Source: Treponema rectale
GTDB lineage: Bacteria; Spirochaetota; Spirochaetia; Treponematales; Treponemataceae
Reading direction: 5' to 3'
Length of the DNA: 64,000 nucleotides
Assembly: GCF_014202035.1 (NCBI RefSeq)
Contig: NZ_JACHFR010000003.1
Span: 311,223-375,222, forward strand
The position numbers and the translations under genes were made by a program. The notes below the pieces were generated by a model, which was not told where the DNA came from, did not search any database, and worked only from the letters and a program-made list of their open reading frames with translations. How positions within the stretch are numbered: the stretch's first letter is position 1; each line of letters starts with the position of its first letter. Below are positions 28,403 to 44,687 of the stretch, piece after piece.

Positions 28403-28595
28403 ATTTTCTCCTTTGACAGGCCGCTTGTGGCCTGTGTTTTTAGTTAGGTTTTCATAGTTTATGACTTGAATATAAGCCTCCCATATTTTCAAAATGTTTA
28501 CTAAATGTTGCTGAAATATTAAAAATTTGAATTTTGAAAGAAATTCTCGTTCATTTTTGTGAAATTTCGGGGTGGGGCGTGTTATAATTTTTTTT

Positions 28596-29273
28596 ATGAT
28601 TAAGATTCTGGTTGTCGAAGATGATGCGGGGTTAAATATGACCGTTTGTGCTTTTTTAAGGAAAAACGGGTATGATGTCATCGGCTGCATGCATGCAAAT
28701 GATGCCTATAACGCAATGTACAACACTCTCTTTGATTTAATAATTTCGGATGTGATGATGCCTCAGATTGATGGCTTCGAATTTGCCGAAACTGTAAGAA
28801 AAATCAATCAGACAATTCCAATTATTTTTATGACTGCACGAGATGATTTTACTTCAAAGCAGAAAGGCTTTGCTGCCGGCATAGATGATTATCTTGTTAA
28901 GCCTGTTGATTTAGATGAACTTCTCCTCCGTATTTCAGCCATTTTAAGAAGGGCAAAAATATCTCAAAGCAAAAAAGTGACAGTCGGCTCGTTGACGCTG
29001 GATGCAGATGCAGTTTCAGCTATTTCTGATGGAAAAGAAATCCAGCTTACAACCCGAGAGTTTAATCTGATTTATAAACTTCTTTCTTACCCAAACAAAA
29101 CCTTTACCAGAGTTCAGCTTATGGATGAATTTTGGGATGCAGATTCCAATGCAACTCCCCGTGCAATAGATGTTTATATTACAAAAATCCGCGAAAAGCT
29201 TTCTGAAGCCGGCTGCTCTGGTTTTGAAATTGCCACAGTACATGGACTTGGTTATAAGGCGGTTGTAAGATGA
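28596..29273 (+). CDS. Response regulator, OmpR/PhoB family
   Basis: KILVVEDD receiver; C-terminal trans_reg_C. Confidence 0.85.
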   Translation: MIKILVVEDDAGLNMTVCAFLRKNGYDVIGCMHANDAYNAMYNTLFDLIISDVMMPQIDGFEFAETVRKINQTIPIIFMTARDDFTSKQKGFAAGIDDYLVKPVDLDELLLRISAILRRAKISQSKKVTVGSLTLDADAVSAISDGKEIQLTTREFNLIYKLLSYPNKTFTRVQLMDEFWDADSNATPRAIDVYITKIREKLSEAGCSGFEIATVHGLGYKAVVR

Positions 29274-30310
29274 TAGAAGAATCTGAAAGAAAAAGCCGTT
29301 TCCCAATAGGTCTTTATTGGATAGTTCTTGGAATGCTACTTGGAACGGCCGGTATAAATATTGCCATCATCCTTTTGGGACTTAAATACAACTGGCAGGC
29401 TATCATTTTTGTTCATTTAGTCATCTTCTATTGGCTTCTTGTTTCTGCTCTGATTGTTCTATATATAAAGCATAAAATTCACAAAACCTACGAGATTCCC
29501 CTTCAGAAAATTTCAGAAGCTACAGAAAAAGTTTCAAAGGGAGATTTTTCAGTTTCGGTTCCAACAGTAAATCCTCCCGAAAAATATGATTATCTTGATT
29601 ATATGATTTTAGATTTAAACAAGATGATTGAAGATTTAAATGGCATTGAAACCCTTCGTACAGATTTTATTTCTAACGTTTCGCATGAACTAAAAACTCC
29701 TCTCGCAGTAATGCAAAATTATGCAAGACTTCTTCAAACTCCTGATTTGACGGAAGAAAACCGCCAGGAATACGCCAGGGCAATTTTTCATAATTCCCGG
29801 CAGCTTACATTACTTATAACAAATATCCTAAAATTGAATAAACTTGAAAATCAACAGATTTATCCAAAAGTTCCTCCTTATGATTTAGGAGAAGAGCTTC
29901 GGGAATGCCTTCTCACTTTTGAAGATTCCTGGACCGCAAAAAATCTGGAGCTGGAAGTTGAAATTGAAGATGGAATAATGACCACTACCGACAGTCAGCT
30001 TTTAAGCCTCATCTGGAATAATTTTATTTCAAACGCAATTAAGTTTACTCCCGAAAATGGAAAAATAATCGTACGTCTTCGCAAAATCGGGGAAGTGATA
30101 CAGGTGAGCGTTCAGGATTCTGGCTGCGGTATGGATGAAAAAACACTCAGCCACATTTTTGAAAAATTCTACCAGGGCGACACGAGTCACGCTACAAAAG
30201 GAAACGGACTTGGGCTTGCCTTAGCAGCAAGAGTTGCAGATATTTGCAGGGGAAAAATCCGCGTAGAAAGCAGTCCTGATAAAGGTTCTGTTTTTTACTT
30301 TGAATTTTAG
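29270..30310 (+). CDS. Sensor histidine kinase (EnvZ-like; two TM, HisKA FISNVSHELKTPL, HATPase_c)
   Basis: H-box and N/G1/G2 boxes (DSGCGMD, GNGLGLAL). Confidence 0.85.
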   Translation: MIEESERKSRFPIGLYWIVLGMLLGTAGINIAIILLGLKYNWQAIIFVHLVIFYWLLVSALIVLYIKHKIHKTYEIPLQKISEATEKVSKGDFSVSVPTVNPPEKYDYLDYMILDLNKMIEDLNGIETLRTDFISNVSHELKTPLAVMQNYARLLQTPDLTEENRQEYARAIFHNSRQLTLLITNILKLNKLENQQIYPKVPPYDLGEELRECLLTFEDSWTAKNLELEVEIEDGIMTTTDSQLLSLIWNNFISNAIKFTPENGKIIVRLRKIGEVIQVSVQDSGCGMDEKTLSHIFEKFYQGDTSHATKGNGLGLALAARVADICRGKIRVESSPDKGSVFYFEF

Positions 30311-35492: not shown

Positions 35493-35650
35493 GGCCCGAA
35501 ATTCTGGTATATTATTTTCCATATAATTGTATAAATCTTTAAAGATTATTAAAATATTCTTATAATCTTTGGAGAGAGAACACGACAATGCTGCTTACGG
35601 CATTTTTCGGGCTTTATGTTTTTAAATATCAACAAAAAGGAGTTTTTCGT

Positions 35651-37450
35651 ATGAAAAAGTATGGAAAAATTACCGCACTCATTGCTGGTGTGGTACTGGC
35701 ACTCGGTTTTGCTTCCTGCAAGGCTGATACAGATGATGGCAGCACCTTTTACACTGTCACATTTAATTCAATGGGCGGCACAGAAGTTTCAAGTCAGAGC
35801 ATTGAAAGCGGAAATAAGGCCACAAAACCTGTCGATCCTACAAAAACGGAAACCGCAACGGAAGGATTTGTTTTTGCTGGCTGGTACACTTCCACAGACA
35901 GAGGAACAACTCTTTCAGAAACAGCATTTGATTTTAACACAGCGATTAAAGGAGACATTACGCTTTATGCTAAGTGGACAGTAAATGCAGTTACACACAC
36001 AGTGACTTTTGACACAAAAGGCGGAAGCACGTCTCCTGCGGAACAGACAATCGTCCACGGAAAAAAGGCCACAAAACCCGCTGACCCTACAAAAGCGGAA
36101 ACCGAAACGGAAGCATTTGTTTTTGCTGGCTGGTACACTTCCACAGACAGGGGAACAACTCTTTCTGATACCGCTTTTGATTTTGACACAGCGATTGAAG
36201 AAGACATTACGCTTTACGCAAAGTGGACAGAAAATGCAGTTACACACACAGTGACTTTTGACACAAAAGGCGGAAGCATGTCTCCTGCGGAACAGACAAT
36301 CGTCCACGGAAAAAAGGCCACAAAACCCGCTGACCCTACAAAGCAGGCTACAGAAACAGAAACTTATATCTTTGACAACTGGTACACTTCCACAGACGGA
36401 GGAGCAACCCTTTCAGAAACAGCATTTGATTTTGACACAGCGATTAGTGATAACATTACGCTTTATGCAAAGTGGACAGTAAATGTAGTTACACACACAG
36501 TGACTTTTGACACAAAAGGCGGAAGCACATCTCCTGCGGAACAGACAATCGTCCACGGAAATAAGGCCACAAAACCCGCCGATCCTGCAAAAACGGAAAC
36601 CGAAACGGAAGCATTTGTTTTTGCTGGCTGGTACACTTCCACAGACGGAGGAACAACTCTTTCTGATACCGCTTTTGATTTTGACACAGCGATTACTGAT
36701 AACATTAGCCTTTACGCCAAATGGAATGTATACACAATTGAGTATATTGAATTAAAAGATTGTTCTGCAATACGCACAATGTTTGAAACTCTGTGTGAAT
36801 TTAGTGGTAGTGTTTTTGATTACAAATTCAAAAAAACTATTACCAGCTTTGCAAAGGCAGATGCAAGGCCTGAAGCTGCAGAAAACTATATTGATGCGGC
36901 AGGAAATCAAATTCCTTTGTGGTATGATGAAGGAAAAACAACTCTCTATTATTACCTTGAGCCCGGAAAAAAAATGAGCCTCAGGACATCAGATGGTAAA
37001 AACTCCCTTTTCAAATATATGGTTGATGCTGTTTCCATAGAAACAGGTGATTTTGACACCAGCAATGTTACTGATATGAGTTCGATGTTCAGCAACTGCC
37101 GTGCATTGACATCACTGGATGTGAGCAAGTTTGACACCAGCAAGGTTACTGATATGAGCTATATGTTCAGCAACTGCCGTGCATTGACATCACTGGATGT
37201 GAGCAGCTTTGACACCAGCAAGGTTACTGATATGAGCGATATGTTCTTCAATTGCCAGGCATTGATAACAATCATTGCTTCTGAAAAGTTTGTTACAGAT
37301 AAAGTGACGGAATCTAGCGACATGTTTAAAAACTGCGCCAGTCTTAAGGGCGGTGCAGGAACAGTGTTTGACGAATATCATATTGACAAGAAATATGCCC
37401 GCATAGACGGCGGCACGAAAAAACCTGGCTACTTTACTAAAAAGCAATAA
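35651..37450 (+). CDS. Surface lipoprotein with four Listeria-Bacteroides-type repeats and C-terminal DUF285/BspA-like repeats
   Basis: Lipobox LGFASC. Four ~250-bp tandem DNA repeats. FDTSNVTDMSSMFSNCRALTSLDVSKFDTSKVTDMSYMF repeats. Confidence 0.75.
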   Translation: MKKYGKITALIAGVVLALGFASCKADTDDGSTFYTVTFNSMGGTEVSSQSIESGNKATKPVDPTKTETATEGFVFAGWYTSTDRGTTLSETAFDFNTAIKGDITLYAKWTVNAVTHTVTFDTKGGSTSPAEQTIVHGKKATKPADPTKAETETEAFVFAGWYTSTDRGTTLSDTAFDFDTAIEEDITLYAKWTENAVTHTVTFDTKGGSMSPAEQTIVHGKKATKPADPTKQATETETYIFDNWYTSTDGGATLSETAFDFDTAISDNITLYAKWTVNVVTHTVTFDTKGGSTSPAEQTIVHGNKATKPADPAKTETETEAFVFAGWYTSTDGGTTLSDTAFDFDTAITDNISLYAKWNVYTIEYIELKDCSAIRTMFETLCEFSGSVFDYKFKKTITSFAKADARPEAAENYIDAAGNQIPLWYDEGKTTLYYYLEPGKKMSLRTSDGKNSLFKYMVDAVSIETGDFDTSNVTDMSSMFSNCRALTSLDVSKFDTSKVTDMSYMFSNCRALTSLDVSSFDTSKVTDMSDMFFNCQALITIIASEKFVTDKVTESSDMFKNCASLKGGAGTVFDEYHIDKKYARIDGGTKKPGYFTKKQ

Positions 37451-38069: not shown

Positions 38070-38252
38070 ATATTTACTCCTATTTCTTATTTATAAAATA
38101 CAGCCCTGCAAGGCAGATTGCAACTCCTAAAACCTTGCTCCAGCTGATGCATATAGGGAATAGAAAAATACCAGGAGTTCAGTTTCCAGAATTTACAAAC
38201 AATTTACACATATTAACTGTAATATTTTAGTTCATAAAGTTATAGTAAAAAT

Positions 38253-40226
38253 ATGATAACTGTAATAAGCCAGATTTTAGGATTTATTGGTTCTCTCTGC
38301 CTGCTGCTTTTTGGAATGGAGATGCTTTCGAACGGTATTCAAAAGGGAGCTGGAAACAACTTGCAGTCTTTGCTTCATAAGATTTCCGGGAACAGATTTA
38401 CAGCTGTGTTAACAGGGCTTGCGGTTACAGCAATAATTCAGTCTTCCGGCGCAACTACTGTAATGGTTGTCAGTTTTGTAAATGCCGAGATTATAAGCCT
38501 TACACAGGCCATTGGAATTATTTTTGGTGCAAATATCGGAACGACAGTTACGGCCTGGATTGTTTCTTTTTTTGGCTTTTCTTTCAGTATTGAGGCAGCG
38601 GCAATTCCTTTATTTGGTTTTGGATTCATTCTTAAATATTTTAAAAAGTTTAAGATACATAATTTTGCTGACTGTTTCATGGGCTTTGCGCTTTTATTCA
38701 TGGCGCTGGGCCTTCTTAAAAACTCAATGAATTTAAAACCTGATTCCGTAAGCTTTTTACAGAAATTTCAGGATTTGAATTTTGCGGGTCTTCTGCTTGG
38801 AGTTTTAATCGGAACTGTTTTTACTGCCCTGATTCATTCTTCTTCTGCTACTACAGCGATAGTACTTACAATGTCTGCAAACGGTTCTCTTCCATGGGAG
38901 CTTGGAGCTGCTATGGTGTTAGGAAGCAACATCGGATCTACAGTGGATGCAGTTATGTCATCTTTGGGTGCAAGCGTTAATGCTAAACGTACTGCCGCTG
39001 TTCATGTGGCCTTTAATGTTACGGGAACTTTAATAGCCCTGCTTTTCTTCCAGCCATTCTTAAATCTGATTGATTTAATTGTTCCGGGCACTCCAATTCA
39101 GAATATTACAATTCATATTGCCATGCTTCATACTGTCTTTAATATTTTGGCTGCACTGCTCTTCCTGCCTTTTGTAAAACAGATTGCTTCTATAACAGAA
39201 AAAGTGATTCATGAAAGCCAGAAAGAAAAAGATGCTCATTATAAAATCCCTATCATCCTTCCAAAAAATCATGTCAGTAAGGACTTGTATACTTTTCAGG
39301 TTCAGAAAGAAATTACAAAAATGGCCGGCCGTGTAATGGACATGATGGGTTATCTGAATCAGGGGCTTAATCAACAAAGGGATATGGCTATTTTAATTGA
39401 CGAAATTAATGCTCAGGAAGAATATGTTGATGAAATGAATCATGAAATTTCCTGGTTCCTGCAGAAGTGTTCCCGACTTCCAACTGCAAATCATAGTGAC
39501 CGGAATAATTATTCCAGTATGATTTCTGTAATTCAGAATCTTGAAGATTTAAGTGATGAATGCTGTTCAATAATGCATTCACTTTGTAAGTTCAAAAAAA
39601 ATGCAGAGTCAGAATCTTTTAAAAATCATACAGAGGAACTTATTGAATATTTTAATCAGGTATATATTTTTTATGAACAGACCTGTACTTATATAGCGCT
39701 TGGTCTTTCTGAAATTGATAAAGTACTTTTATCTGATGTGGAAGATAGAATCGACAGTACAAAGCGGGAACTTAAGAAAGCAAGTCGTAAGCGAATTGAA
39801 AACGGCAGTAATGTAAAAGCTGAACTTAATTACATGGATTTAGTCCGCAAAATTGAAAAAGCCGGAGACTGCATTTTTGGAGTAATTCAGGCTATTCAGC
39901 CTAATGTTGAAGACTCTGTTCTGGCAGATGGTTCTGAAAAAAATCTTATTAGCGCGCAGAATGTAATTATCAATACAAAAAGCAGAAAGGCTTTTGTATC
40001 AGGAAAAGAGGTTCTGCTTGCAGTAAAAGAATATGAACTGCTCGCTCTTCTTATGAAAAATAAAGGACAGGTTCTTACCCGTAAGCAGCTTTTGGAATCT
40101 GTATGGAATTATGATAAAGAAATAGAAAGCCGTACTCTGGATGTACATATCGGACTTTTGCGCCAGAAATTAAATAATCAGAAGTTGATTGAGACAGTAC
40201 GTGGAGTGGGGTATAGAATCTCTTAG
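38253..40226 (+). CDS. Fusion protein: Na/Pi-cotransporter-like membrane domain (NptA/YjbB type) + PhoU-like region + C-terminal OmpR/PhoB-type winged-helix DNA-binding domain
   Basis: Duplicated IQSSGATT / IHSSSATT Na_Pi_cotrans motifs. C-terminal TRKQLLESVWNYDKEIESRTLDVHIGLLRQKL...ETVRGVGYRIS matches trans_reg_C. Confidence 0.7.
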   Translation: MITVISQILGFIGSLCLLLFGMEMLSNGIQKGAGNNLQSLLHKISGNRFTAVLTGLAVTAIIQSSGATTVMVVSFVNAEIISLTQAIGIIFGANIGTTVTAWIVSFFGFSFSIEAAAIPLFGFGFILKYFKKFKIHNFADCFMGFALLFMALGLLKNSMNLKPDSVSFLQKFQDLNFAGLLLGVLIGTVFTALIHSSSATTAIVLTMSANGSLPWELGAAMVLGSNIGSTVDAVMSSLGASVNAKRTAAVHVAFNVTGTLIALLFFQPFLNLIDLIVPGTPIQNITIHIAMLHTVFNILAALLFLPFVKQIASITEKVIHESQKEKDAHYKIPIILPKNHVSKDLYTFQVQKEITKMAGRVMDMMGYLNQGLNQQRDMAILIDEINAQEEYVDEMNHEISWFLQKCSRLPTANHSDRNNYSSMISVIQNLEDLSDECCSIMHSLCKFKKNAESESFKNHTEELIEYFNQVYIFYEQTCTYIALGLSEIDKVLLSDVEDRIDSTKRELKKASRKRIENGSNVKAELNYMDLVRKIEKAGDCIFGVIQAIQPNVEDSVLADGSEKNLISAQNVIINTKSRKAFVSGKEVLLAVKEYELLALLMKNKGQVLTRKQLLESVWNYDKEIESRTLDVHIGLLRQKLNNQKLIETVRGVGYRIS

Positions 40227-40269: not shown

Positions 40270-40745
40270 ATGTCAGATTGTGATACATCAGAGAAAAAGA
40301 AATTGCGAGAGACGCAGCAATTTCCCCTGATGCCTGACCGCCCCTGCAGTCAGGAGTTTGATAATGCAGTAAATTTTTTTACATGTGTTACTCTTGACAC
40401 ATCAGGGAAAAAGAAATTGCGAGAGACGCAGCAATTTCCCCTGATGCCTGACTGCCCCTGCAGTCAGGAGACCGGATAATCATAAGAATCTTTTTTTATA
40501 TATGTTTCTCTTGACACATCAGGGAAAAAGAAATTGCGAGAAACGCAGCAATTTCCCCTGATGCCTGACTGCCCCTGCAGTCAGGAGTTTGATAATAAAG
40601 TAAATTTTTTTATATGTTACTATTGACACATCAGGGAAAAAGAAATTGCGAGAGACGCAGCAATTTCCCCTGATGCCTGACTGCCCCCGCAGTCAGGTGT
40701 TTGAAAATATAGTAAAACTTTTTTATGTGTTACTATTGACAGTAA
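40270..40745. repeat. Tandem array, ~117-bp unit x 4 copies plus a partial fifth, each with two strong hairpins
   Basis: TTGACACATCAGGGAAAAAGAAATTGCGAGAGACGCAGCAATTTCCCCTGATGCCTGACTGCCCCTGCAGTCAGGAG plus a ~40-bp variable tail. Unit starts at ~40277, 40394, 40511 and 40623. Confidence 0.8.
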
Positions 40746-40763
40746 CACATTTCTCTCTTATAC
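40735..40763 (+). promoter_or_regulatory. Candidate sigma70 promoter TTGACA-N17-TATACT in the final partial repeat unit, upstream of trpGD
   Basis: TTGACAgtaacacatttctctctTATACT lies ~60 bp upstream of the trpGD ATG. TGTTACTATTGACAGTAACA is a perfect palindrome overlapping the -35. Confidence 0.4.
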
Positions 40764-40824
40764 TGTTTCTATAAAAAGAAACAATACCTGGCGAAATTTC
40801 CGCCTGTGGTTATGGAGGAATAAT

Positions 40825-44062: not shown

Positions 44063-44652
44063 TCAGTTGTACTTTGGAACTGTTTCGTTTCCGTCATAAT
44101 CATAGAAGGTTATGTTTTTAATATAGACCTGCGTTCCTTTATCGTTAAGATCCCTTACACCGCCGATCATAAAAAGATAATCGGTTTTTGATTTCATGTG
44201 GTTAAGGTCAATGCTGTACTCCTTGAAGTTTGGAGTTACATCTATTTCGTTTTTCTGATTATTGTCAAAGTTCATGTAGAAAGTTCCGTAAGAACTTGCC
44301 TTTGCCTCGAAAGTAACTTTTGCGATGTCAGAAAGATTAAGGGTTGCTCCGTTAGGAATGCCGTTGTCGTAGCATCCGAAGGATCCTCCCCACCATCCCA
44401 CGTTTCCTACAGTAATGCATCCGCCTGTGTAGTCAATGTCAAAAGTCATTTCGTGTGCACCCCATTCATTCTGCCAGATCTGAACTCCGCATCCTGGAAA
44501 TGTTTTAAACAGAACGCTTTTTTCTCCGCTTCCTGTATTTGAGTATACCGGAGGATTGTTGGCATAAGAAACAGATTCCTGTTTTGAAGATGCACAGCTG
44601 CCTAAAAAGAGAGCAGCCATTGCTGTTACTGCAATAATTGTTTTTTTCATGA
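44063..44652 (-). CDS. Lipoprotein, putative carbohydrate-binding (CBM-like beta-sandwich)
   Basis: Lipobox LFLGSC; start at MKKTIIAV with GGAG RBS. Confidence 0.5.
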
Positions 44653-44687
44653 TAAACTCCTGTAAATATTTTATTGTAGATTTATGA

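What the first reader, a model, noticed from the sequence alone, without database searches (positions are those of the whole stretch)
38253..40226. Na/Pi-cotransporter-like membrane protein fused to PhoU-like and OmpR-type winged-helix DNA-binding domains
The N-terminus has the duplicated Na_Pi_cotrans motifs of NptA/YjbB. The C-terminal ~100 aa match the trans_reg_C consensus (..LTRKQLLESVWNYDKE..RTLDVHIGLLRQKL..ETVRGVGYRI). A transporter-type membrane domain wired directly to a DNA-binding output would be a one-component 'transceptor'. OmpR-type wHTH domains bind direct repeats. The gene ends 45 bp before a tandem array of direct repeats that precedes the trp genes.
Basis: partly seen in the sequence, partly recalled or inferred. 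Interest (0 to 1): 0.55.

Follow-up and report, generated by a model that had tools for sequence, protein, structure and literature searches.

The report
Phosphate transporter fused to PhoB-type DNA-binding domain
A group of gut and rumen Treponema species carries one protein that joins a phosphate transporter, its PhoU-like regulatory domain and the DNA-binding half of the phosphate-starvation regulator PhoB; its likely DNA target is a conserved phosphate-regulon box in front of its own gene, not the repeat array downstream.

Summary
Window 38253-40226 (+) is one 657-aa ORF with Na_Pi_cotrans (E 3.9e-55), a PhoU-like domain (E 6.5e-7) and Trans_reg_C (E 1.8e-26). It is identical to a Treponema rectale protein. 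More than 60 protein clusters at 61-92% identity, from independent assemblies, have the same architecture, so it is not an artefact.

The winged-helix domain is under purifying selection (dN/dS 0.03-0.08), and its best curated match is PhoB.

Close non-fused orthologues sit beside a PhoB/PhoR-type two-component system. In one genome the order is nptA, phoB, phoR, 72 bp apart. Deleting the receiver domain there would produce this fusion.

A direct repeat, TTTACA-N5-TTWACA, lies 62-65 nt upstream of the start codon in all 8 fused loci examined. The same box precedes pstS, the phoB-like gene and nptA in the non-fused relatives, so it is their Pho box.

The transceptor idea is plausible. The link to the 112-bp array and the trp genes is not supported: the array carries no box and accompanies none of the orthologues whose downstream DNA could be read.

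I could not establish whether T. rectale still has a separate PhoB/PhoR. DNA binding is inferred, not shown.

The parts
38192..38208 (+). Pho-type box: two direct half-sites, TTTACA-aacaa-TTTACA, 11-bp period, starting 61 nt upstream of the ATG. Weaker in-phase half-sites (TTAACT at 38213, TTTTAG at 38225) may extend it toward the -35 position.
   Evidence: It is the only exact match to TTTACAN5TTWACA in the 64-kb window and the only weight-matrix hit at or above 12 bits (32 bits). The window's own site was among the 14 used to build the matrix. The box is present at -62 to -65 in all 8 fused loci and in the orthologues linked to a two-component system. Its columns are among the few invariant ones in the 13-sequence upstream alignment. 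The same box lies upstream of pstS, the phoB-like gene and nptA in L015 and L006. The extra half-sites were seen by eye only.
38241..38246 (+). A -10-like hexamer, TATAGT, 6 nt before the start codon. It is the predicted promoter of the fusion gene and would give a leaderless or near-leaderless mRNA. No -35 consensus is present.
   Evidence: Columns T91, A93, T94 and T97 of alignment A4 are invariant across fused and non-fused orthologues. No Shine-Dalgarno sequence is visible in the sequence. The transcription start is inferred, not measured.
38253..40226 (+). The complete fusion gene, 657 aa plus stop codon: NptA-type Na/Pi transporter, PhoU-like domain, linker and PhoB-type winged helix.
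38274..39212 (+). Membrane domain, residues 8-320: Na/Pi cotransporter II-related, with the duplicated Na_Pi_cotrans repeat.
   Evidence: TIGR00704 covers residues 8-320 at 269 bits. PF02690 matches in two stretches. The sequence matches solved SLC34A2 structures, E 5.7e-12. The AF2 model is all-helical in this region. dN/dS is 0.05-0.08.
39279..39893 (+). Cytoplasmic PhoU-like domain, residues 343-547: six long helices. The acidic motifs EEYVDEM, LEDLSDE and IEKAGD are conserved.
   Evidence: PF01895 and PF01865 matches. AF2 helices H343-372 through H521-547 have pLDDT of about 80-97. E389, D393, E431, D435, E535 and D539 are invariant in alignments A1 and A3.
39894..39944 (+). Variable, probably flexible linker, residues 548-564. 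It has no counterpart in the non-fused proteins, which end at the equivalent of residues 547-550.
   Evidence: pLDDT is below 50 at residues 553-560. Length and sequence vary among orthologues. There is no in-frame Met here, so a separately translated winged-helix protein is unlikely.
39945..40220 (+). OmpR/PhoB-type winged-helix DNA-binding domain, residues 565-656. Recognition helix ESRTLDVHIgLLRQKL; wing ETVRGVGYRI.
   Evidence: PF00486, E 1.8e-26. Best NCBIfam match is PhoB. The model superposes on the PhoB effector domain 1gxq/1gxp, TM-score (target-normalised) 0.79-0.84, rmsd 1.7-2.7 A. It is 48% identical to the winged helix of the Treponema Pho response regulator, E 1e-30. dN/dS is 0.03-0.08.

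Best explanation
The gene encodes a membrane-anchored, one-component phosphate regulator. It arose when the DNA-binding domain of a PhoB-type response regulator was fused to the C-terminus of an NptA/YjbB-type Na/Pi transporter that already carried a cytoplasmic PhoU-like domain.

Shown:
- The fusion is real and is conserved in a clade of host-associated Treponema.
- All of its parts are under purifying selection.
- Its nearest non-fused relatives lie next to a PhoB/PhoR-type system and pstSCAB-phoU.
- An 11-bp-period direct repeat, TTTACA-N5-TTWACA, marks pstS, phoB and nptA promoters in those relatives. It is retained at the same position upstream of every fused gene examined.

Inferred:
- The tethered winged helix binds this Pho box as a head-to-tail dimer. 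It thereby autoregulates the gene, and probably acts at other Pho-box promoters elsewhere in the genome.
- Its access to DNA, or its dimerisation, is controlled by the transporter and PhoU-like module instead of by phosphorylation. This would short-circuit the usual chain from transporter to PhoU to PhoR to PhoB.
- The likely direction is activation when phosphate flux is low. I have no evidence on the sign.
- The promoter has a -10 element but no -35, with box half-sites running toward the -35 position. That is the layout of PhoB-activated promoters.
For: Architecture and conservation.

Purifying selection on the winged helix: dN/dS is 0.03-0.08 at dS of 0.5-0.7. That equals the value for the transporter domain and is lower than for the PhoU region.

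PhoB affinity:
- The best curated family for the C-terminus is PhoB.
- The fold matches the PhoB effector domain.
- The recognition helix ESRTLDVHIrLLRQKL is nearly the same as ESRTVDVHIkTLRQKL in the Treponema Pho response regulators.

Origin:
- In L018 the order is nptA-phoU (543 aa), a 72-bp gap, a PhoB-like regulator (225 aa), then a PhoR-like kinase.
- L006, L013, L015 and L016 have the regulator and kinase immediately upstream of nptA.
- The best matches for this two-component system are PhoB and PnpS/PhoR. JGI names the regulator PhoP.
- Similarity between the fusion and these regulators starts in the inter-domain linker.

The box:
- It is present in 8 of 8 fused loci at -62 to -65. It is also present in the non-fused orthologues that are shown or likely to be linked to a two-component system: L006, L013, L014, L015, L016 and L020, plus a variant in L018. 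Linkage is demonstrated for L006, L013, L015, L016 and L018. L014 and L020 are contigs too short to show it.
- It is absent from the four non-fused orthologues with no two-component system in the DNA held (L008, L011, L012, L017). The L012 and L017 contigs are short.
- In L015 it also precedes pstS, pstC, the phoB-like gene and two further genes.
- In the window it occurs once, upstream of this gene.

Co-loss: the fused winged helices are monophyletic (93% bootstrap). In the transporter tree the non-fused L008 and L011/L012 nest inside the fused clade (99%, 98% and 86%). Those lineages lack both the winged helix and the box.

Literature: in S. aureus the PhoU domain of NptA modulates PhoPR output (PMC13170248). 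This makes a signalling link between that domain and PhoB-type regulators independently plausible.
Against: - No binding or expression data exist; every functional step is inferred.
- I could not determine whether T. rectale or the other fusion-bearing genomes also keep a canonical PhoB/PhoR. The hit list was filled by one abundant lineage. A separate PhoB could be what binds the box.
- The 100-residue phylogeny does not resolve the origin of the winged helix. Grouping with the Treponema Pho regulators has only 35% bootstrap support. Identity to them (49-55%) is no higher than to the best unrelated OmpR-family regulators.
- The main box is centred near -53, upstream of where E. coli Pho boxes usually sit. 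The proximal half-sites are weak.
- AF2 gives no confident contact between the PhoU-like domain and the winged helix (pTM 0.57, disordered linker). The gating mechanism is therefore speculative.
- A DNA-binding domain held on a polytopic membrane protein has to bring chromosomal DNA to the membrane.
Confidence: 0.55

Rival explanations
1. The upstream box is read by a separate, canonical PhoB that still exists elsewhere in these genomes, so the fusion gene is simply a Pho-regulon member. Its tethered winged helix would then act as a modulator. It might compete for Pho boxes as a membrane-held damper giving negative feedback when the transporter is abundant, or it might have other targets.
For: The same box sits in front of non-fused nptA genes, where a separate PhoB-like regulator is encoded next door. 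The box therefore predates the fusion. Presence or absence of PhoB/PhoR in the fusion genomes could not be established. The window does contain another OmpR-family two-component system (28572-30310), though it is only 31% identical to the Pho regulator.
Against: In two lineages nested within the fused clade, loss of the winged helix coincides with loss of the box. That is not expected if an independent PhoB drove the promoter. None of the fused loci has a phoB or phoR gene within 5-10 kb (loci L009 and L010), unlike most of the non-fused orthologues.
Confidence: 0.25
2. The winged helix is released from the membrane by regulated proteolysis within the variable linker (residues 548-564) and acts as a soluble, constitutively active PhoB effector domain. 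The transporter and PhoU module would control cleavage.
For: The linker is variable and predicted to be disordered. From my own knowledge: isolated PhoB effector domains are active without the receiver domain (Ellison and McCleary 2000, J Bacteriol 182:6592). That title appears in the reference list seen; the paper itself was not held.
Against: No protease gene is conserved nearby, since the neighbourhoods differ in every locus. No conserved cleavage motif is visible in the linker. ToxR- and CadC-type regulators work while tethered, so release is not required.
Confidence: 0.1
3. One reading: the winged helix binds the tandem 112-bp array at 40281-40741 and couples phosphate transport to trp gene expression.
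For: Physical proximity only, in this one genome. OmpR-type domains do bind direct repeats.
Against: The array and trp genes are absent downstream of all 6 orthologues whose downstream DNA is held, including one at 92% identity. The array has no copy in other loci or in JGI metagenomes. It has no weight-matrix hit at or above 4 bits. Its 112-bp period does not fit a dimer of winged helices. The units are dominated by two stable hairpins, which suggests an RNA or terminator role.
Confidence: 0.03
4. Artefact: two adjacent genes (nptA and a regulator) merged by a sequencing, assembly or frameshift error, or a decaying remnant of a regulator gene.
For: In some relatives (L018, L079) nptA and a response-regulator gene really are adjacent and separate. 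A tblastn search joins them into one match.
Against: More than 60 independent clusters have the same uninterrupted ORF of about 657 aa. No receiver domain is present. dN/dS of the winged helix is 0.03-0.08.
Confidence: 0.01

Closest known systems
Canonical Pho signalling: PstSCAB, PhoU, PhoR, PhoB (E. coli), or PhoPR/PnpRS in Firmicutes
   Same: The logic is the same: a phosphate transporter reports through a PhoU-type domain to an OmpR/PhoB-type winged helix. That domain reads direct repeats with an 11-bp period at promoters that lack a -35 element. The box here precedes pstS, phoB and nptA in related Treponema.
   Different: The fused protein has no histidine kinase and no receiver domain, so no phosphorylation step is possible within it. 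The transporter is a secondary Na/Pi carrier, not the Pst ABC system. All elements are in one polypeptide. The half-site is TTTACA, not the E. coli CTGTCAT (the E. coli consensus is from my own knowledge).
NptA with a C-terminal PhoU domain acting as an accessory regulator of PhoPR in Staphylococcus aureus (PMC13170248, mBio 2026)
   Same: The transporter plus PhoU-domain module is the same. That study shows genetically that this PhoU domain influences output of the Pho two-component system.
   Different: In S. aureus the signal passes to a separate PhoR/PhoP pair. Here the DNA-binding output is covalently attached. The paper's text contains no occurrence of 'fused', 'fusion' or 'DNA-binding'.
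ToxR/CadC/TcpP-type membrane-integrated one-component regulators, including CadC with its co-sensor transporter LysP
   Same: An OmpR/PhoB-family winged helix is anchored to the cytoplasmic membrane and works without phosphorylation. In the CadC-LysP case, transporter status is converted into transcription.
   Different: Those proteins have an N-terminal winged helix, a single transmembrane helix and a periplasmic sensor, and LysP is a separate protein. Here the winged helix is C-terminal, follows a polytopic transporter and a PhoU-like domain, and any sensing would be cytoplasmic or flux-based.
E. coli YjbB, and the 552-aa Treponema NptA-PhoU proteins (P0065-P0120)
   Same: Homologous over residues 1-547, at 66-71% identity for the Treponema proteins.
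   Different: They end where the linker begins and have no DNA-binding domain.

Membership tests
Na/Pi cotransporter II-related (PF02690 / TIGR00704; NptA/YjbB type) | Two Na_Pi_cotrans repeats forming the membrane domain, scoring above the curated cut-offs | tested here: met
   PF02690 scores 186 bits (cut-off 29.1) in two stretches. TIGR00704 scores 269 bits (cut-off 210). There is also a sequence match to solved SLC34A2 structures.
Na/Pi cotransporter II-related (PF02690 / TIGR00704; NptA/YjbB type) | Actual Na+-coupled phosphate transport | not testable with these tools
   This needs uptake assays. PMC13170248 states that the E. coli relative YjbB is not sufficient for phosphate import.
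PhoU domain (PF01895) | Profile match above the cut-off, a helical-bundle repeat and conserved acidic E/D-x3-D motifs | tested here: met
   PF01895 scores 30.1 bits (cut-off 23.5); PF01865 scores 23.8, just under its cut-off of 24.4. AF2 predicts six long helices over residues 343-547 at high pLDDT. E389/D393, E431/D435 and E535/D539 are invariant.
OmpR/PhoB-family winged-helix output domain (PF00486) | Full-length profile match and the winged-helix fold: a four-stranded N-terminal sheet, three helices and a C-terminal hairpin | tested here: met
   92.5 bits (cut-off 26.2) over profile positions 1-77. The predicted secondary-structure order is E-E-E-E-H-H-H-E-E. TM-score (target-normalised) is 0.79-0.86 to PhoB, YycF, ArlR and PhoP effector domains.
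OmpR/PhoB-family winged-helix output domain (PF00486) | Sequence-specific binding to direct repeats | not testable with these tools
   Indirect support only: a conserved 11-bp-period direct repeat upstream of the gene.
PhoB proper (TIGR02154 equivalog) / two-component response regulator | N-terminal receiver domain with a phospho-acceptor Asp, and a whole-protein score above the equivalog cut-off | tested here: not met
   There is no Response_reg match. TIGR02154 scores 83 bits against a cut-off of 296, and only profile positions 127-226 are matched. The protein is therefore PhoB-derived or PhoB-like in its output domain, not a PhoB.
ToxR/CadC-like membrane one-component regulators | N-terminal cytoplasmic winged helix, a single transmembrane helix and a periplasmic sensor domain | tested here: not met
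   The domain order is reversed, and the membrane part is a polytopic transporter. The protein may work like these regulators but is not a member of the family.
Pho regulon member (gene preceded by a Pho box) | A promoter carrying the same direct-repeat box found at pstS and phoB promoters of related genomes | tested here: met
   The box at 38192-38208 matches the boxes upstream of pstS, the phoB-like gene and nptA in L015 and L006. That these boxes are bound by the Pho regulator is itself inferred from their positions.

The most novel reading that the evidence does not exclude
In T. rectale and its relatives the fusion has replaced the PhoR/PhoB two-component system altogether. Under this reading it is a phosphorylation-free, single-polypeptide Pho regulator. 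Transport flux through NptA is read by the PhoU-like domain and passed directly to a membrane-tethered PhoB effector domain, which controls the whole Pho regulon (pst and the rest) through TTTACA-N5-TTTACA boxes. This would be a natural 'Rosetta stone' showing that PhoU-type domains can act directly on the PhoB output, not only through the kinase.
Probability: 0.3. Interest if true: 0.8.

Novelty: new variant of a known kind. Interest (0 to 1): 0.62.

Why it matters
How PhoU-type domains pass transporter status to the Pho regulon is still debated. Only recently was the PhoU domain of NptA shown to influence PhoPR in S. aureus (PMC13170248).

A naturally occurring, selectively maintained fusion of NptA-PhoU to the PhoB effector domain is independent evolutionary evidence for that functional link. 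It also offers a minimal system to study: one protein and one predicted operator, with no phosphotransfer step inside the protein.

It would add a new architecture to the membrane-bound one-component regulators: a polytopic transporter with a C-terminal winged helix. It also gives a candidate Pho box for a poorly studied group of gut and rumen spirochaetes.

If the fusion coexists with a normal PhoB/PhoR, it is still a new kind of feedback element on the Pho regulon.

Tried and rejected
- Remote or independent fusions. An exhaustive HMMER search with residues 331-657 against 1.84 billion representatives gave no other protein matching both the PhoU-like region and the winged helix in its top 150. 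It found only fragments of the Treponema fusion, non-fused NptA-PhoU proteins, and response regulators. The Treponema fusion itself sits in a 50% cluster whose representative is non-fused. Similar cases could therefore hide inside other clusters.
- A separate PhoB in T. rectale. A profile of four Treponema Pho regulators returned 120 near-identical hits from one abundant lineage and nothing labelled T. rectale. The result is inconclusive. T. rectale was also missing from the genome-contig hits.
- The array.
  - Rfam gave only a sub-threshold YenS match, 33 bits against a gathering score of 80.
  - BLAST of the array against all fetched loci and the window found no other copies.
  - Two exact-pattern scans of JGI metagenomes found nothing.
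  - The weight-matrix scan of the array found nothing.
- Other box candidates in the window. The two one-mismatch hits are chance. The hit at 44650-44666 overlaps the Shine-Dalgarno sequence and ATG of a lipoprotein gene.
- Winged-helix phylogeny. It supports a single origin of the fused domains (93%). It does not resolve the donor: only 35% support for grouping with the Treponema Pho regulators.
- AF2. It gave no confident docking of the winged helix on the PhoU-like domain, so I draw no structural conclusion about gating.
- Literature. Searches found no description of this architecture.
Full report
**1. What is there**

Window 38253-40226 (+) is a single 657-aa ORF. Pfam finds the following:
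- two Na_Pi_cotrans stretches, 186 bits;
- a PhoU match at residues 354-441, 30.1 bits against a cut-off of 23.5;
- a PhoU_div match over residues 350-540, just under its cut-off;
- a full-length Trans_reg_C match at residues 584-656, 92.5 bits, E 1.8e-26.

NCBIfam places the N-terminal 320 residues in TIGR00704 (Na/Pi-cotransporter II-related, 269 bits). It ranks PhoB (TIGR02154) as the best model for the C-terminus. Only the effector half of that model is matched, and the score is far below the equivalog cut-off.

An AlphaFold2 model built on 53 homologues has a mean pLDDT of 79. It shows:
- a helical membrane domain;
- six long helices over residues 343-547, the PhoU-like part;
- a low-confidence linker over residues 548-564;
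- a winged helix over residues 565-656.

The modelled winged helix superposes on the PhoB effector domain (1gxq/1gxp) with a target-normalised TM-score of 0.79-0.84.

**2. It is not an artefact**

The identical protein is on record for Treponema rectale. More than 60 clusters at 61-92% identity, from many independent assemblies, have the same length and all three domains.

There is no in-frame methionine in the linker that could start a separate winged-helix protein.

Nei-Gojobori estimates between orthologues with unsaturated dS (0.47-0.69) give these dN/dS values:

| Region | dN/dS |
|---|---|
| Winged helix | 0.06-0.08 |
| Transporter domain | 0.06-0.08 |
| PhoU-like region | 0.10-0.14 |

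At higher divergence the winged helix gives 0.03-0.05. The DNA-binding domain is being maintained by selection.

**3. Where it came from**

About 550-aa homologues at 66-71% identity stop exactly where the linker starts.
- In L006/L007, L013, L015 and L016 this non-fused gene lies immediately downstream of an OmpR-family response regulator and a histidine kinase.
- In L006 and L015 the phoU-pstBACS genes are a few kilobases away.
- The regulator's best curated match is PhoB. The kinase's best matches are PnpS and PhoR. JGI names the regulator PhoP.

In Treponema sp. UBA6367 (L018) the order is nptA-phoU (543 aa), a 72-bp gap, the PhoB-like regulator (225 aa), then the kinase. A Flavobacteriales genome (L079) also has nptA followed by a regulator gene. 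A deletion removing the nptA stop codon, the spacer and the receiver domain from an L018-type arrangement would give the fusion.

Other points fit this origin:
- Similarity between fused proteins and these regulators begins in the inter-domain linker.
- The recognition helices are almost the same: ESRTLDVHIrLLRQKL against ESRTVDVHIkTLRQKL.

Phylogeny gives a mixed picture:
- The fused winged helices form one group (93% bootstrap).
- The 100-residue tree does not resolve the donor. Grouping with the Treponema Pho regulators has only 35% support.
- In the transporter tree the fused proteins fall into two groups. Non-fused L008 and L011/L012 nest among them (99%, 98% and 86% bootstrap).
- The simplest reading is one fusion followed by at least two secondary losses of the winged helix.

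**4. The likely DNA target**

A direct repeat, AATTTACA-nnn-AATTWACA, sits 62-65 nt upstream of the start codon in all eight distinct fused loci: window, L089, L001, L010, L092, L002, L009 and L004. The surrounding intergenic DNA has otherwise diverged.

In a 13-sequence alignment the invariant columns are the box, one position (T69) just downstream of it, a -10-like TATAGT six bases before the ATG, and the ATG itself.

The same box is at the same position in front of non-fused orthologues. For L006, L013, L015, L016 and L018 (a variant box) a two-component system is seen alongside. L014 and L020 are contigs too short to show this.

The box is absent from the four non-fused orthologues with no two-component system in the DNA held. 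These are L008, L011, L012 and L017, and the L012 and L017 contigs are short.

In L015 the box also lies 60-125 nt upstream of pstS, pstC, the phoB-like gene, an unknown 376-aa gene and a truncated NaPi ORF. In L006 it lies upstream of the regulator gene, nptA and the same unknown gene. This is what a Pho box looks like.

In the 64-kb window the box occurs exactly once, at 38192-38208. The two one-mismatch hits are chance.

The two lineages that appear to have lost the winged helix have also lost the box. This argues that the box and the cis-encoded winged helix work together.

**5. How it probably works**

The shown and inferred steps are kept apart in the Best explanation section. In outline:
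- The PhoU-like domain and the winged helix would lie on the cytoplasmic side.
- The winged helix is held on a flexible linker of about 17 residues.
- It most plausibly binds the Pho box as a tandem dimer and autoregulates the gene, and probably acts at other Pho-box promoters.
- There is no receiver domain. Control must therefore come from the transporter and PhoU module, through oligomerisation, sequestration or release.

From my own knowledge, an isolated PhoB effector domain is active. The source is Ellison and McCleary 2000; I saw the title, but the paper was not held. A tethered effector domain would therefore need restraint rather than activation.

None of this has been tested. I could not learn whether a separate PhoB/PhoR persists in these genomes, so the modulator rival stays open.

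**6. The downstream array**

The array is four units of about 112 bp at 40281-40741. It ends in a strong sigma-70-type promoter, TTGACA-17-TATACT at 40736-40764, for trpGD. Several results count against it as the target:
- Six orthologous contexts have readable downstream DNA, and the genes there differ in each: DUF2798, CheW-CheB-CheR, an acetyltransferase, a metallo-beta-lactamase, a nitroreductase-like ORF (by eye) and so on.
- A further orthologous locus, L001 (91% identity), ends 59 bp after the stop codon, so its downstream side cannot be read.
- The array has no copy anywhere else that I could search.
- It has no match to the box.

Its units fold into two stable hairpins on either strand. 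The adjacency looks fortuitous. What the array does is unresolved (see the items noticed in passing).

**7. Comparison and novelty**

Functionally this resembles the Pst-PhoU-PhoR-PhoB pathway compressed into one polypeptide. It also resembles ToxR/CadC-type membrane one-component regulators. It fails the defining features of both: it has no receiver domain, and it lacks the N-terminal winged helix, single transmembrane helix and periplasmic sensor.

An exhaustive profile search found no second family with this architecture among the top 150 representatives. Literature searches found no description of it.

In GTDB species representatives I saw it in only two species besides T. rectale (L009 and L010). 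Metagenomic proteins show a broader clade.

I rate it a new variant of a known kind, of moderate to high interest.

Noticed in passing
window 40281-40741: Four tandem units of about 112 bp lie between the fusion gene and the trp promoter. Each unit folds into two adjacent stable hairpins on either strand (z-scores -4.9 and -4.4). On the minus strand each unit also carries a promoter-like GTAACA-16/17-TATTAT, followed by a hairpin and a GAAATTGC...GCAATTTC stem with a TTTTT run. The array could therefore be four tandem small-RNA genes of about 65 nt, or a stack of terminators acting as an insulator. It matches no Rfam family and has no copies in other loci or in JGI metagenomes.
   Followed up: partly
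window 40725-40764: The trpGD promoter, TTGACA-17-TATACT (11 of 12 consensus matches), is overlapped at its -35 element by a perfect 9-bp inverted repeat, ATGTGTTAC-N8-GTAACACAT. This is a candidate repressor operator for the trp genes.
   Followed up: no
window 38241-38253, and the orthologous loci in alignment A4: A conserved -10-like hexamer (TATAGT, CATAGT or TATAAT) sits only about 6 nt before the ATG, and no Shine-Dalgarno sequence is present. This holds for both fused and non-fused nptA genes and suggests leaderless mRNAs.
   Followed up: partly
proteins P0131, P0156, P0159, P0143, P0153 and P0211: These metagenomic proteins match the winged-helix region in several separate stretches: 6 in P0131 (692 aa), 7 in P0156 (976 aa), 8 in P0159 (1500 aa) and 4 in the 6306-aa P0143. 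Pfam scans of P0131 and P0211 found Trans_reg_C as the only family, in 6 and 3 stretches. The other proteins were not scanned. It is an unusual architecture, unrelated to this finding.
   Followed up: no
L006 8766-9896 (-) and L015 14186-15316 (-): An unknown 376-aa protein with no Pfam or NCBIfam match is preceded by a Pho box in two Treponema genomes and lies between nptA and phoU-pstBACS. It is a candidate new Pho-regulon member.
   Followed up: no
L015 7303-7856: A 159-aa ORF corresponds to only the first half of an Na/Pi cotransporter. It has its own Pho box 74 nt upstream and lies just before the phoB-like gene.
   Followed up: no
window 28572-30310: A second OmpR-family two-component system: a 233-aa regulator and a short 346-aa kinase. 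The regulator is only about 31% identical to the Treponema Pho regulators, so this is probably not the Pho system.
   Followed up: partly
window 35588-37450: A 620-aa protein with a lipoprotein-like N-terminus (by eye) has four Listeria-Bacteroides repeats (Flg_new) and a DUF285 domain. Its nearly identical internal repeats also generate repeated spurious ORFs on both strands. It and a PNPOx-like gene lie between the fusion gene and a TetR gene. In the 92% orthologue, L089, that TetR gene is the immediate upstream neighbour.
   Followed up: no
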